Shown here piece after piece: positions 21,001-27,000 of a stretch of DNA of 64,000 nucleotides. The DNA comes from Carcharhinus longimanus. Lineage: Eukaryota. The stretch's first letter is position 1; every line of letters begins with the position of its first letter. The position numbers were made by a program. The stretch is taken from contig JASCQW010000061.1 in NCBI GenBank assembly GCA_030264375.1, forward strand, positions 116,008,012 through 116,072,011, given 5' to 3'.

Positions 21001-24000
21001 CTATATTAAATTAGAATATATTTAAACACTTCAGGTTTATGTTTCATTAGAAACAGGATCTCCCATCTGCTGTACAATCGAGATCACCAGTTTGAATTTT
21101 GGTGAATGAATTCTGCGTTTGGAGGCAGGTCTGTTTATTTAAATATAATAGCAGGCAGAAAAAGGCATACTTGATGAGTATGTGCTGTCATCTGAGAACC
21201 TCACCCATCAGAAGCGTATATCTGGAAATCATTTCATCCATTAATTTAAATTGACAGAAAATCATGGCAAACTTGCTTACAATTTGGCTGTACTGCACTT
21301 TCCACATGGGAGAGTGCATTTGTAAAATGATTCCTCAGAGGCTCATCTCTTTGTCTTATCTGGAGATAAAGGAGGGATACGACAGGATCAAAGATTGAGA
21401 AGTTAACAAATTGATTCCACGTTGCAAAATAATGTACAAGAGTGATTAAAAATTAGTAACCATGTTTGCAGTGTAAGCCATCAAAAAGATGAAGTATTGA
21501 CGATGTGCTGTTCCACAGAAAGAGAAAAACCGGTAAAAAGACATACCAAAACTATTCTCCCCGCAATCACATAAATGTCATTGGAATAACTGACTTTTCT
21601 TTTAATTTTCTTTAGGCCTTTTACATTGTATTTTGTAAAGCTATTGAAAGGACAGAACAGTCCGAGGATCTAAAGGAGCGAGTAGCAAACCTGACAGACT
21701 GCATCACATACTCTGTGTTTCTCTACACGAGCAGAGGCCTCTTTGAAAGGGACAAGGTTGCATTCATTTCTCACACAACTTTCCAGGTGTGTAGAGATGC
21801 TTTTCAATGCAGATTGACTCTGATATTATGGTAAATCCGAGTGTCCTGTTGCCTGCTTCATTACATTTCCAGCATAATATACGACGAATAAGGTGTTGCA
21901 ACCCACCCCCAACAACAGGAAAGATTATCAAAACCTCTGGGTATTCATTAATTACACATTTATAAGAATATCCAATACAGTGTTAATTATGCCATCATTT
22001 GCTCCTTTTGATGTTGTTAATGAGACTACTCTGTATTCTGTCAGTAACTTTCTTATTTGTAAGTAGCAAATCCTGAATGACATTGGTCCTTTAATATATT
22101 TTGCCATCAGGGAATTAAACTTCCTGAGCAGATGGCAAGTTATTTTACTTCAGGAAAATTATCTTCTCCAGTGTAACACATTGGTAGAAAACTATGAATT
22201 GATAGCTGGATTTTATAAATATGTGTTGGGCTAAAGTAAAAACGATTTGGAACCTGCAGAAATTGGAACTTCTTTGCAGTTATGTCATGGGACGTTTATC
22301 CAAAACATTTAATCTTGACAAATCGTTCGCAAAATAATTCAGTTTTAGATTACTGTTTAGTGTCTATCATACAGTTATATCTCCAGTCTGAATTCCTTGA
22401 TGATAGTGAAATAAGTTTGGCCTAAATGCTGTGGAGATTTTGCAGAGTCCCACAAACAGAAGATCACTAAACATTGTCTATTTTATTATTGAGTACTGTC
22501 ATTTATCTATTTTTCTTTTAGAAATGTTCCATTGGAAACTATTTTGGAACAGGACAGTAAAGAAACAGGAAAACATCCAGCAGTTTTCACTTGGAGTTCA
22601 TGGAACAATTCATGCACTTAAGAAACATCCAAAATGTTCCCAACTAATATGATTCACAATTAGGTGCAACCAAGATTTAAACAAGGGCTATGAAATTTTG
22701 AGAGTTCCCCCAAGCTTCGGTTGTAACTCCATGAGGTCACTGAAGAGACCACCACCTTAAACAATAAACAGAGGTGGCTTTGTATAATCTAGAATTTCAG
22801 TGCCAAATTACTGAAGTTAGATTTGTCCCATTAGAATTGCTGCTAAGATTAATTTTATTCTTTTATGCTTCCTTTTATTTTTCTTTAAACTTTTTTATTC
22901 AATAATAGAATTTTTCCAACAGAATTTCTGCCCTTACATTGCATCAGTGCACTCTTTTTCTATTTGATTCTTTATATCGGAACTTTTCTGAAAAAGGATC
23001 CACTGATGAGTCTTGTATGTGGCCCCAGGATATCTTGGATTCATGTATGAAATAAAATGATAAATGTGCATCGTGCCAAGGACCAAAATAAAAATTTTCC
23101 TCTAATTTTAACAATACATCGGGGGGTTAATTTTAACTGTATGCAATAGAGTAAAACGAGTAATAGCAAAACTGCAACATAAGCCAATAGAATTAAAAAT
23201 TATAAGATGTCAGTTGGCTATTATGTATTTTACATAATTGCTCAAACTTATCCCAGAGTTAAAAAGAAGCTGCGATCAGAAGTCATGTCTCGATATAGTC
23301 TATCTCGATATAGTGTTACCAGCACAATTAATCAGCTTGATTTCTGAGAAGAAAGTTTGAGTAAGGAACCAAGGCATACATTTTAAAGATTTATTCAGAT
23401 ATGTGCATGACAGCTGCTTTTGAATTCATTTAATAGATATTAAAATCCAAGGAGCCCTGGCAACTAGGAGTACATTAGTAGCCTGCGATGTCCAAATAAA
23501 AAAAAGTGATCAGTTTGAACTGCAAAGAGTCCAGATTAGTTAGTCTCACATTTGGTAAAATTATGTATTTTTTACTATTATGTACTACTTCATCTCAATT
23601 TTTTTGTCAGGAACGGTTGAGGACTCTGGGTGTGTACTCGTTGGAATTTGGAAGGATGAGGGGGGATCTTATTGAAACTTACAAGATACTGCAAGGCCTG
23701 GATAGAATGGATGTGGAGAGGATGTTTCCACTAGTAAGAAAATCTAGAACCAGAGGACACAAGCTCAGGCTAAAGGGATGATCCTTTAAACAGAGATGAG
23801 AAGGAATTTCTTCAGCCAGAGAATGGTGAATCTGTGAAACTCTTTGCCACAGGAGGCTGTGGAGGCCAGGTCATTGAGTGTTTTTAAGATAGAGATATAG
23901 TCTTGATTAATAAGGGGGTCAGGGGTTATGGGGTAAAGGCAGGAGAATGAGAATGAGGATGAGAAAGATAACAGCCATGATTGAATGGTGGAGCAGACTC

Positions 24001-27000
24001 GATGGCTGAGTGGCCTAAATTTGCTCCTATGCCTTATGGTCTTATAGCTGAAGCCTGTTACAAAGTCAACTTTAATCTGACTTAATCAATTTTCTGTGGA
24101 GCTTGAGGATAAATGCAATAACTAACAAAACATTTTTTGTTATTTTAGGCATGCTGTTAGAAACTTATTGAGGTATCAGGTCCAATGACGCGCCAATACG
24201 GAGCTAAAATTTACCCATGAGAGTTTATCTAACATATGTAGGAAGAATAGAAAAGACCCCAAACACAACATTTGAAATTGTACTATTTTCCAGATCCTGT
24301 TGATGAACAATGAGATAGATCCTGAGGAGTTGGACTTTTTCCTGAGATTCAATGTTGAGCAAACATACAAGAGCCCTATTGATTTTCTCTCCACCCAAGC
24401 TTGGAGCGCCATCAAGGTCAATTTAGCATTTTTCTTTTGCCCCTTACACTTGTGTGAAACGAATTTGACTGTTTGCTATGATAAGGGCCTTACATAAATA
24501 TAAATAAAAGTTACTGTTCAAGACGTGCTGAGGAGAATGAAATCTATCCTATGTCTCATTGGCTTGCTAAATTAATAAGCCAGCTTTAGACTAAAGCAAA
24601 TCAGCATGATTTGAATCAAGACCTCTTATTATCCTTACTCTGAAAGAAAAGTGGATTGTGCTTTTTCGTTTGTCTTCACACTTGGACATAAATCATTTCT
24701 TAGGTGCAAAGAGAATAAGAAATTGGACAGGAAGGAATAAATGCTTGTAACGGAGCCTTCCTAATGTTTCTTCCATATAAAATTTGCTATCCCAAGAAGA
24801 ATTCGCTATTTATCATAATTACAAGTACAGTACAGTTTTCCAGTAAATATGTGCTAGAATATTCATTGTTTAGTTCCCTTTTGTCCCCCAGAGGTACCAT
24901 CCAGAATCACAATGCCACGTGTACAAGTATCCAGCTGGTCCTCAGCAGTAGCTTTGTCAACCCTTCCAAACTTCCTGATTTTCTTTATGCTGTTTGAACT
25001 AAATCCAATACTGACAGAAATTTCCTCCTCCTAAATATTAGGAACACCATGGTCGGGATTCCCCCCCCCAAAAAAGCTAAGTGCTCATCAGGAGGGAAAA
25101 CGAGAGATTTTCCCGCCTGCTTTTTGGGTGTACTTAGTTTCACACAGAGTGCCTCAGGGAGATTCACACCGGAAAGTGGGGAAAGCGGAGCCTCATCCCG
25201 CTGGAGAGACTAGAATCAGCACGCTGAGTGCACCACTATGCGTGCACCAATCTGTCAGTGGGAAATTCAGTGCATGCTCACTTGGCCCCCCTGCCCTCCC
25301 CCCCACTCCCCCATCACTAGCCCCACGCAGCTAGCCCCAATCTTCCTCCCCCCTTCCCACCCCACCATGTGTCACTACAATCTCCGTCCCACACCCTCCT
25401 CCCATAGCCCACCCAGATTTTCTTCCCCACTTCACAATGGGCAGCCCAGAGCTGTCCACCCCCCCACCCCCCATGGGTAGCCCCGATTGCCTCCCTCTCC
25501 CATAAATCACATTGTACAGTGTGCAACAGATCTCCCCACACCCTCCTCCAACCACTGATCAACCCCTGAAAGGCCCGAACCCAGAAGCCCTCTCCCCGGC
25601 ACTGCACCTTGGCGGTACCCAATGGGCAGTGCCAGGCTGATAGTTTATGGAGACCATTTGTAATCCCCATTAGTGAGAACATCTCCCAGCAGGGGTGGGG
25701 AGACACTTGCAGGCCCAGAGACTGCTGATATTGAAATATCAAATTCAATATTATAATCAGCCCAACGTTGGTTTCCAGCATGATGCTGATTACATCAGAA
25801 AACATTGCCTGGGAGACACATGATTGGCTGGACGCCGGTCATGAGTCACGCTACAGGTCCCCTGCTGATGTCTCCCGGCCTACTGTGCTACTTGATCAGT
25901 GCAGCAGACCGGGAGAGTCACTCCCCTAAAGCTAGTGCCTCTGTCCTGCTGTAACTTCATTCCCTTTCATCGCCCTCCCTGATCACTGAGGCTGAACAAG
26001 ACTGTTTGCAACCTTGGCATTCAGTTTGCCTCTGAGATGACCTGCTGACCTTCATCACCCAGATCACTGACTTCCATCGCCATCATGATGCCCAACTCTG
26101 CCCGTGTCAGCCCATCTTTTGCTACTATAAGACTCAACTATTTCAGTGATCTCCTGGCCAAACTCGTATTTTCCATGTGAACACCAGCTCTTCCAAACCT
26201 CTGCTGCCCAAATCCTAACTCACCAAGATCCACATTCCTATCACCCCTGCGCTCAATGCCCAAAATTAACTCAGTCCCTAAATTCTTCAGTTTAGAATTC
26301 TCATCCTTTTTTTAAGGTCCTTCGTGTCCTCGCCTCTTCCTACTTCTGTACTCTTACAGTTGCCAAACCATGCCCTCTGCCCCTCTCAAAAACACCTTCT
26401 GGTCTTCCATCTCTGGATTTCTGTGCTTCTCCAACTCATCCATAGCAGCAGGCAAAGTCACGACTTCCTTTGCTGAGGCCCTAATCTGTGGAATTCCCTC
26501 CACCCCTTGGATTTCTCCAAGTCCCTTCCTCACTCTCTCCCTTTGGTCTTTAAAATGGGCTCCTGTGATCAGGTTCCTGGTCTCCTGTCCTGATGTTGCC
26601 TACTTTGGCTTGGTATCTATTATTGTCTCATTATGGTTCTGCGGAGCCATCTTTGGAATGGTTTCATTGTATTCTAAGAAGAAATTACTTATGGCTTATG
26701 TCCATAGTTATATGGAGATCTTTTGAGGCCAATTCTGGATCAGCCTCAAGTCACTAATAAATGCTGTGTAGTCAAGACTGAATTTCCCAAACTTAGTAAA
26801 CTTAAAAGTTCGAAAGAGTTACCAAAATGTTATGGGAGAAAAAGCATCACCTTTCTATCTATCTTTATTCTCATGCTTGTACAGTTTTCACTGTTTTTCA
26901 AGATGTATTTTGTATCCTGAGCATATCTGGTTTCTTACAGTGAGTGATGTAAAATAATGCCACACCACAACTGAAAATTTTATATTTAAGTTGAATTCCT

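What the first reader, a model, noticed from the sequence alone, without database searches (positions are those of the whole stretch)
21616..24416. Two intact dynein heavy chain (DNAH11-like) exons inside a VPS41 intron, same strand
Seen: two stop-free phase-0 exons (171 and 123 nt) with good AG/GT sites, separated by a 2.5-kb intron. They lie between consecutive VPS41 exons (16099 and 28143) that join each other directly (...SIDKP|PFITG...). I found neither flanking dynein exon in the window. Known: these peptides are adjacent in the C-terminal motor region of DNAH11/9/17, and VPS41 and DNAH11 are distant loci on human 7p. Inference: the retained intron argues against an ordinary processed retrocopy, so this is a DNA-level duplication or a misplaced contig. 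An N gap lies on the left (19257-19356, with different LINEs either side), but none lies between 24416 and 28143, so the right junction is within contiguous sequence.
Basis: partly seen in the sequence, partly recalled or inferred. Interest (0 to 1): 0.8.

Follow-up and report, generated by a model that had tools for sequence, protein, structure and literature searches.

The report
Dynein gene fragment inside VPS41 intron
Two undamaged exons of a shark ciliary-motor gene (DNAH11) sit alone inside an intron of the unrelated gene VPS41; this is either a young stray DNA copy with no function of its own or a mistake in a gap-ridden draft assembly, and the sequence alone cannot tell which.

Summary
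Window 21616-21786 (57 aa) and 24294-24416 (41 aa), + strand, are stop-free and AG/GT-bounded. They match exactly adjacent residues of DNAH17 and DNAH9 and carry residues specific to shark DNAH11.

No other dynein exon lies in the window. Nine VPS41 exon matches run collinearly on the same strand. The two exons flanking the fragment are consecutive in the protein.

The fragment differs from Cetorhinus and Scyliorhinus torazame DNAH11 at 7 of 98 positions. The window's VPS41 differs from S. canicula at 7 of 247. That is the same proportion as between true orthologues, so I see no decay.

In the VPS41 reading phase both exons hit stops within a few codons, so they cannot extend VPS41.

The fragment shares a gap-free 21.6-kb contig with five VPS41 exons. 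A simply misplaced contig is therefore excluded, but a chimera inside the contig is not.

My estimates are about 0.5 for a real, recent unprocessed DNAH11 fragment and about 0.4 for an assembly chimera. Reads or the parent locus are needed to decide. Interest is low to moderate.

The parts
21616..21786 (+). DNAH11-like exon A (57 aa), phase 0 at both ends, intact acceptor and GT donor
   Evidence: DNAH17 3682-3738, E 2.4e-15; 89% to the Chiloscyllium punctatum DNAH11 partial
21787..24293 (+). Retained intron between the two dynein exons (2507 nt). It holds a 5'-truncated LINE 3' end in + orientation at about 23608-24047.
   Evidence: (LINE ORF2 residues about 804-896 matched at 23608-23796 by 3 of 4 query proteins)
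24294..24416 (+). DNAH11-like exon B (41 aa), phase 0, good acceptor, weak donor gtcaat
   Evidence: DNAH9 3762-3802, E 1.4e-6
15958..16099 (+). VPS41 exon upstream of the host intron. It ends one base into a codon (phase 1).
28143..28279 (+). VPS41 exon downstream of the host intron, consecutive with the exon above. Its 3' end is approximate, taken where identity to shark VPS41 stops.
19257..19356 (.). Assembly gap of 100 N, the left limit of the contig that carries the dynein exons
19357..20925 (-). 5'-truncated CR1/L2-like LINE that runs into the gap, interrupted by a SINE-like repeat at 20068-20406. The 5' end at about 20925 was judged by eye.
   Evidence: ORF2 residues about 342-609; SINE-like repeat with 12 HSPs elsewhere in the window
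17105..18253 (-). A second LINE fragment (RT C-terminal part and tail) on the far side of the gap. It overlaps the first fragment in ORF2 coordinates.
   Evidence: ORF2 residues 579-858 with query P0330; from about 661-697 with the other 3 queries
24417..28142 (+). Gap-free sequence between dynein exon B and the next VPS41 exon. Any chimeric seam would have to lie here. It is GC-rich and C-rich at about 25.0-26.7 kb.
   Evidence: (no copy of any part of it elsewhere in the window)

Best explanation
A short stretch of the DNAH11 locus is inserted in sense orientation into the twelve-kilobase VPS41 intron of a galeomorph shark. It holds two neighbouring exons, which encode the region between the AAA5 and AAA6 ATPase modules, together with the intron between them. 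It is an unprocessed, DNA-level or unspliced-RNA-templated gene fragment. It covers 98 of about 4470 codons and has no flanking exons, no start and no end, so it cannot make a dynein. In the VPS41 reading phase it runs into stop codons, so it cannot extend VPS41 either. It is young, or at least not visibly decayed.

Shown: the anatomy, the family assignment, the lack of neighbouring dynein exons, the frame incompatibility and the gap-free link to VPS41 exons.

Inferred: that the assembly is right at 24.4-28.1 kb, that a full DNAH11 exists elsewhere in this genome, and the mechanism, which I take to be patch repair of a break or a replication-based copy.
For: - The exons, splice sites and exact adjacency are confirmed.
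- Shark-DNAH11-specific residues are present, and the fragment shares derived states with Cetorhinus and Scyliorhinus. That is the same clade that the window's VPS41 is closest to, at 7/247 mismatches to S. canicula and 9/247 to Carcharodon. The copy therefore arose within this lineage.
- The dynein exons and five VPS41 exons (28143-39387) lie in one gap-free stretch, 19357-40982.
- The 3.7 kb between exon B and the next VPS41 exon has no copy elsewhere in the window even at relaxed settings. By contrast, the SINE-like repeat gives 12 HSPs, and LINE fragments were matched at about seven to nine places. Contig ends in this window do break at young repeats.
- Both highly conserved flanking exons are absent, as expected of a short copied patch.
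- Three of the four window-specific residues fall in columns invariant in 8 other chondrichthyans. This is a faint hint of relaxed constraint and is not significant.
- The donor of exon B (gtcaat) is weak.
Against: - The copy shows no stop, frameshift or excess divergence. Its distance to other sharks' DNAH11 (7-8 of 98) stands to the window's VPS41 distance (7 of 247) in the same ratio as between true orthologues. For comparison, Cetorhinus against Scyliorhinus DNAH11 is 4-5 of 98, and Carcharodon against S. canicula VPS41 is 4 of 247. This is exactly what the species' real DNAH11 exons would look like if wrongly assembled here.
- The assembly is poor, with 15 gaps in 64 kb and an unmerged 67-nt overlap across the gap at 40983-41045.
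- The left limit of the segment is a gap next to a LINE and a SINE.
- I found no target-site duplication, poly(A) tail or terminal repeats that would mark a true insertion.
- In relatives the two genes appear to lie on different chromosomes, so a real event would have to be an uncommon interchromosomal one.
- The parent locus could not be inspected.
Confidence: 0.5

Rival explanations
1. Assembly chimera. The two exons are this shark's genuine DNAH11 exons. A small piece of the DNAH11 locus, about 19357 to somewhere in 24.5-27 kb, was scaffolded into a gap of the VPS41 intron through shared repeats. The right-hand gap was then falsely closed, while the left-hand one stayed as 100 N.
For: - The draft is fragmented, with 15 N runs, 8 of them exactly 100 N.
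- Contig ends lie in repeats, and there is an unmerged overlap at one gap.
- The segment starts at a gap inside a LINE that does not continue properly on the other side.
- The exons are intact and diverge at orthologue level.
- The host intron is the longest of the eight VPS41 introns in the window, about 12 kb against 1.7-5.8 kb. It would be ordinary in size without the segment.
Against: - It needs a false join inside 3.7 kb of gap-free sequence in which I found no repeat shared with the rest of the window.
- Elsewhere in the window the assembler broke at repeats rather than bridging them.
- A plain contig misplacement is excluded, because five VPS41 exons are in the same contig.
Confidence: 0.4
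2. The insertion is real and was templated by unspliced DNAH11 pre-mRNA. A reverse-transcribed patch was used to repair a break, or the fragment was mobilised in trans by a LINE enzyme. It was not copied from DNA.
For: - Such insertions of intronic and exonic RNA-derived patches without target-site duplication are described in people (PMC5110952; I read passages of the abstract and of sections 8, 9 and 11).
- The fragment has the same orientation as the host gene.
- No target-site duplication or terminal repeats were found.
- An AATAAA lies at about 24507 and an A9 run at about 27263, but neither has the expected partner feature.
Against: - No poly(A) tail abuts the homology.
- The ends of the copied block are unknown, because the parent locus could not be read.
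- The LINE families seen here are of the CR1/L2 kind, by resemblance of their reverse transcriptase. These are not known for trans-mobilising other RNAs; that point is recalled, not tested.
- The patches described in the paper are called short, and this one is at least 2.8 kb.
Confidence: 0.1
3. The fragment is real and functional. The two splice-competent exons are used, either as poison exons that truncate or down-regulate VPS41, or as part of a new transcript.
For: - Both exons keep AG and GT sites and polypyrimidine tracts and lie in sense orientation in the intron.
- In the VPS41 phase they bring stops after 6 and 5 codons. That is what a poison exon does.
- The open dynein frame shows no decay.
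Against: - There are no expression data.
- An intact frame in the dynein phase is irrelevant to a poison exon, and is explained more simply by youth or artefact.
- The donor of exon B is weak.
- No annotated shark protein among the 7 hits joins dynein and VPS41 domains.
Confidence: 0.04

Closest known systems
Unprocessed (duplicated) pseudogene fragment
   Same: It is a copy of part of a gene that keeps its intron and splice sites. It lacks the rest of the gene and lies away from the parent.
   Different: It has no disabling mutation inside the copied exons. The parent locus has not been seen. It is apparently interchromosomal and isolated, rather than part of a larger segmental duplication.
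Templated sequence insertions, class 2 (PMC5110952; passages read)
   Same: A patch templated from a distant locus is inserted without target-site duplication or poly(A). Donor sequences can be intronic.
   Different: Those insertions are described in people and are called short. This one is at least 2.8 kb, in a shark, and its junctions are undefined.
Chimeric contig or false gap closure in short-read draft assemblies
   Same: Foreign single-copy sequence is flanked by repeats and a gap, and is identical in quality to the true gene.
   Different: One junction must lie in gap-free sequence where no repeat shared with the rest of the window was found.
Beta-type outer-arm dynein heavy chains DNAH9/DNAH11/DNAH17
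   Same: The two peptides align end to end with DNAH17 3682-3779 and DNAH9 3705-3802 and with shark DNAH11. In the Chiloscyllium protein the stretch lies between Pfam AAA_9 (residues 1-210) and Dynein_heavy (453-573).
   Different: Only 98 of about 4470 residues are present. There is no ATPase module, stalk, tail or C-terminal domain.

Membership tests
DNAH11 (beta outer-arm dynein heavy chain) coding sequence | Significant similarity to the family at collinear, adjacent positions | tested here: met
   Exon A matches DNAH17 3682-3738 and DNAH9 3705-3761. Exon B matches DNAH9 3762-3802 and DNAH17 3739-3779.
DNAH11 (beta outer-arm dynein heavy chain) coding sequence | Closer to DNAH11 orthologues than to paralogues, and sharing their lineage-specific residues | tested here: met
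   Mismatches to eight chondrichthyan DNAH11 proteins are 7-20 of 98, and 7-9 of 98 to galeomorph sharks. The shark-specific motifs are visible. Shark DNAH9 and DNAH17 were not compared directly.
DNAH11 (beta outer-arm dynein heavy chain) coding sequence | A complete motor gene (tail, linker, AAA1-6, stalk, C-terminal domain) | tested here: not met
   Only two exons are present. The rest of the last 800-1629 residues of five DNAH11 proteins found nothing in the window, and the conserved flanks found nothing either.
Unprocessed pseudogene fragment | Keeps the intron(s) of the parent | tested here: met
   A 2507-nt intron with GT...AG lies between the exons. Whether the parent has an intron at this exact place could not be checked.
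Unprocessed pseudogene fragment | An intact parent copy elsewhere in the same genome | not testable with these tools
   No shark genome collection is on hand.
Unprocessed pseudogene fragment | Signs of neutral decay | tested here: inconclusive
   There are no stops or frameshifts, and divergence is proportional to that of VPS41. Of four private residues, three fall in columns invariant in eight chondrichthyans, which is no different from a uniform expectation. Functional orthologues show the same pattern.
Assembly chimera | Junctions at gaps or in repeats shared between two loci | tested here: inconclusive
   On the left there is a gap plus a LINE and a SINE. On the right there is no gap and no repeat shared within the window. 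Genome-wide repeat content is unknown.
Assembly chimera | No reads spanning the junction, and a matching hole at the true locus | not testable with these tools
   No reads and no other contigs of this assembly are available.
LINE-mediated insertion (3' transduction or trans-mobilisation) | Target-site duplication, a 3' tail, and a LINE 3' end upstream of the transduced DNA | tested here: not met
   The neighbouring LINE is on the opposite strand, with its truncated 5' end facing the exons. The only 11-nt direct repeat (17104 and 20983; 5 of 1000 shuffles reach that length) is LINE-tail sequence by comparison with the tail at about 24035-24047. No other flanking repeats were found.

The most novel reading that the evidence does not exclude
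The fragment is real, and it is a fresh exon-shuffling intermediate: a splice-competent two-exon module of a dynein motor dropped in sense orientation into a VPS41 intron. There it is already spliced into some VPS41 transcripts as a poison cassette. This would cut off the C-terminal 140 residues, including the cysteine/histidine-rich end, or trigger mRNA decay.
Probability: 0.04. Interest if true: 0.5.

Novelty: new member of a known kind. Interest (0 to 1): 0.25.

Why it matters
If the fragment is real, it is a dated, clean example of how a few exons of one gene land inside another gene on a different chromosome in a slowly evolving vertebrate genome. That is the raw material for exon shuffling and for poison exons. 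It also warns annotators not to call a second DNAH11 or a VPS41-dynein fusion here.

If it is an artefact, it marks a false join in this assembly and, presumably, a two-exon hole in its DNAH11 model. That would matter to anyone using the assembly for gene models or synteny. In either case it does not change what is known about dynein or VPS41.

Tried and rejected
1. Pfam on each exon peptine alone gave no family. The only match was a sub-threshold, irrelevant one for exon A at E 0.037. The reason is that the stretch lies between Pfam domains.
2. Pfam on 71 of the 179 ORFs of 70 aa or more (list) was meant to map transposons. It gave one weak RVT_1 match at 6836-7228 and nothing near the fragment.
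3. Target-site duplication around the LINE at 17.1-20.9 kb was tried as a test of true adjacency. The 11-mer found is part of the LINE tail, so it was rejected.
4. Direct and inverted repeats and tandem repeats around the segment gave nothing that marks an insertion or a transposon end.
5. Rfam on the whole window gave 0 matches.
6. Protein Atlas on the ORF at 26316-26723 gave no usable hit.
7. A repeat that I thought I recognised by memory at about 25950-26720 could not be confirmed. It has no copy in the window.
8. A relaxed-constraint test on private residues had no power.
9. The literature search for VPS41 together with DNAH11 found 3 papers. None concerns this topic, judged from the listing only. 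A search on shark assembly errors gave nothing that I used (listing only).
10. The downstream neighbour AMPH was sought with a fused Polypterus model. Only its VPS41 part matched.
All searches were done exon by exon, and distances were summed as counts.
13. No structure prediction or complex prediction was run, because neither would bear on the open question.
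Full report
WHAT IS THERE

On the + strand, 21616-21786 (171 nt) and 24294-24416 (123 nt) are open from end to end. Each is preceded by a pyrimidine tract plus AG and followed by GT. The donor of the second exon, gtcaat, is weak. A TAG stop lies immediately upstream of the first exon, in frame, and forms part of the acceptor. 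The open frame therefore begins exactly at the splice site.

I searched the two peptides separately throughout.

Against PDB chains, exon A aligns over its full length with DNAH17 3682-3738 (E 2.4e-15) and DNAH9 3705-3761 (E 5.3e-14). All 34 sequences found at E<=0.01 are chains of about 4000-4800 residues, nearly all named dynein heavy chains. Exon B aligns with DNAH9 3762-3802 and DNAH17 3739-3779, the only two hits. The peptides are thus exactly adjacent in the family.

Pfam sees nothing in either peptide alone. In the Chiloscyllium protein the stretch (residues 263-360) lies between AAA_9 (1-210) and Dynein_heavy (453-573), so it falls outside any Pfam domain.

WHICH DYNEIN

The best named relatives of exon A are a Chiloscyllium punctatum partial protein (89%) and Pristiophorus DNAH11-like (88%). 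In all there were 7 hits among 11 candidates of 101-2000 aa.

To reach full-length proteins I searched with residues 360-480 of the named Pristiophorus protein among longer proteins. This gave 1221 hits among 1260 candidates, and the top rows were chondrichthyan DNAH11.

Aligned exon by exon with 13 vertebrate DNAH11 proteins, the window peptides carry the residues that set shark DNAH11 apart from bony-vertebrate DNAH11. Mismatches over the 98 columns are as follows:

- Cetorhinus: 7
- Scyliorhinus torazame: 7
- S. canicula: 8
- Chiloscyllium and Hemiscyllium: 9 each
- Pristiophorus and Amblyraja: 12 each
- Callorhinchus: 20

THE HOST GENE

VPS41 proteins of 12 chondrichthyans give 7-9 collinear + strand HSPs each. 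They lie at 3175-3231, 9059-9130, 10801-10869, about 15958-16099, 28143-28282, 30181-30285, 33055-33099, 36948-37034 and 39331-39387, the last being the C-terminus.

The exons on either side of the fragment are consecutive, and the intron between them is phase 1.

The window's VPS41 is identical to no listed species. It is closest to S. canicula (7 of 247 mismatches) and Carcharodon (9 of 247). The host is therefore a galeomorph shark near the lamniform and carcharhiniform lineages, which is the same neighbourhood in which the dynein fragment sits.

IS THE COPY DECAYED?

It is not visibly decayed: there are no stops and no frameshifts.

The distance of the fragment to other sharks' DNAH11 (7-8 of 98) stands to the window's VPS41 distance (7 of 247) in a ratio of about 2.5-2.9. 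Between true orthologues the ratio is about 2.5-3.2. That figure uses Cetorhinus against Scyliorhinus DNAH11 (4-5 of 98) and Carcharodon against S. canicula VPS41 (4 of 247). Different lamniform species had to serve for the two genes.

The fragment has four private residues. Three of them lie in columns invariant in eight other chondrichthyans, which is what a uniform scatter predicts. However, Pristiophorus and Amblyraja orthologues show similar private changes, so the test has no power.

The copy is therefore either young or the real gene.

WHAT IT CANNOT DO

Ninety-eight codons out of about 4470, without neighbours, cannot make a motor. The very conserved flanking exons are absent from 16100-28142 (best E 1.4) and from the whole window.

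Read in the VPS41 phase, exon A meets a stop after 6 codons and exon B after 5. Inclusion in VPS41 mRNA would therefore truncate the protein.

SURROUNDINGS

The window has 15 N runs. The dynein exons lie in the longest gap-free stretch, 19357-40982, together with five VPS41 exons.

To the left, in order from the fragment outward, lie:

- a minus-strand, 5'-truncated CR1/L2-like LINE at about 20925-19357, which runs into the gap and is split by a SINE-like repeat at 20068-20406 that has 12 HSPs elsewhere in the window;
- the 100-N gap;
- about 1 kb without LINE similarity;
- a second LINE fragment at 18253-17105.

The ORF2 coordinates of the second fragment overlap those of the first with one of the four query proteins. 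With the other three queries the two pieces do not abut.

A LINE tail in + orientation sits inside the dynein intron at about 23608-24047.

To the right, 24417-28142 is gap-free. It is GC-rich and C-rich at 25.0-26.7 kb and has no copy elsewhere in the window even at relaxed settings.

I found no target-site duplication, tail or terminal repeats. Rfam found nothing.

REAL OR ARTEFACT

A simply misplaced contig is excluded by the shared contig. What remains is a chimera within it: a piece of the DNAH11 locus scaffolded into a gap of this intron and falsely closed on the right.

For a chimera:
- the poor assembly, which includes an unmerged 67-nt overlap at the gap at 40983-41045;
- the gap and repeats at the left edge;
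- the orthologue-like state of the exons;
- the unusual length of this intron, about 12 kb against 1.7-5.8 kb for the other seven;
- the apparent location of the two genes on different chromosomes in S. canicula, Hemiscyllium and Amblyraja, judged from the lengths of the records that hold them. This is soft evidence.

For a real insertion:
- the right junction lies in 3.7 kb of gap-free sequence without any repeat shared within the window;
- elsewhere in the window the assembler broke at repeats rather than bridging them.

I put a real, young, unprocessed DNAH11 fragment at about 0.5. That figure includes about 0.1 for an origin templated by unspliced RNA, of the kind described for people in PMC5110952 (passages read), and about 0.04 for a fragment that is also used. 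I put a chimera at about 0.4.

WHAT STAYED UNCHECKED

- The parent locus, reads and other sharks' VPS41 introns.
- Whether DNAH11 genes have an intron at exactly this position.
- Shark DNAH9 and DNAH17 for direct comparison.

Nothing about this arrangement turned up in print. The one search for it, VPS41 together with DNAH11, listed 3 unrelated papers (listing only).

Noticed in passing
window 40916-40982 and 41062-41128: 67 nt on either side of the 63-N gap at 40983-41045 are 98.5% identical in direct orientation. This looks like an overlap of contig ends that was never merged, which is a sign of assembly quality.
   Followed up: partly
window 49196-49277 and 49782-49863: An 82-nt inverted match at 94% identity, with one arm abutting the gap at 49682-49781. 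Several other contig ends (626-698, 63573-63649) also lie in repeats.
   Followed up: no
window 20068-20406 and about a dozen other places (for example 51119-51459 and 59684-60023): A SINE-like repeat of about 340 nt gives 12 HSPs elsewhere in the window on both strands, at 68-87% identity. Rfam and tRNA-type families were not matched.
   Followed up: partly
window 6818-8368 (-), 13088-13885 (-), 60062-60954 (-), 49-384 (+): Further CR1/L2-like LINE fragments were mapped with four ORF2-like proteins. The reverse-transcriptase query from the window had 32,761 relatives at E<=0.001 among the protein representatives.
   Followed up: partly
window VPS41 exons at 9059-9130, 36948-37034 and 39331-39387: The window's VPS41 has four residues seen in none of 11 other chondrichthyans, including one in an otherwise invariant motif. 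They could be true lineage changes or base errors of the draft.
   Followed up: no
window 39400-64000: No coding match was found downstream of the VPS41 3' end. A fused VPS41/AMPH model from Polypterus matched only with its VPS41 part, so the expected neighbour was not seen in the window.
   Followed up: partly
window 5477-5551 and 11917-12051 (+): Weak tblastn hits (E 3-7) of several DNAH11 C-terminal proteins fall at the same two places, out of order relative to the two exons. I take them for chance matches.
   Followed up: no
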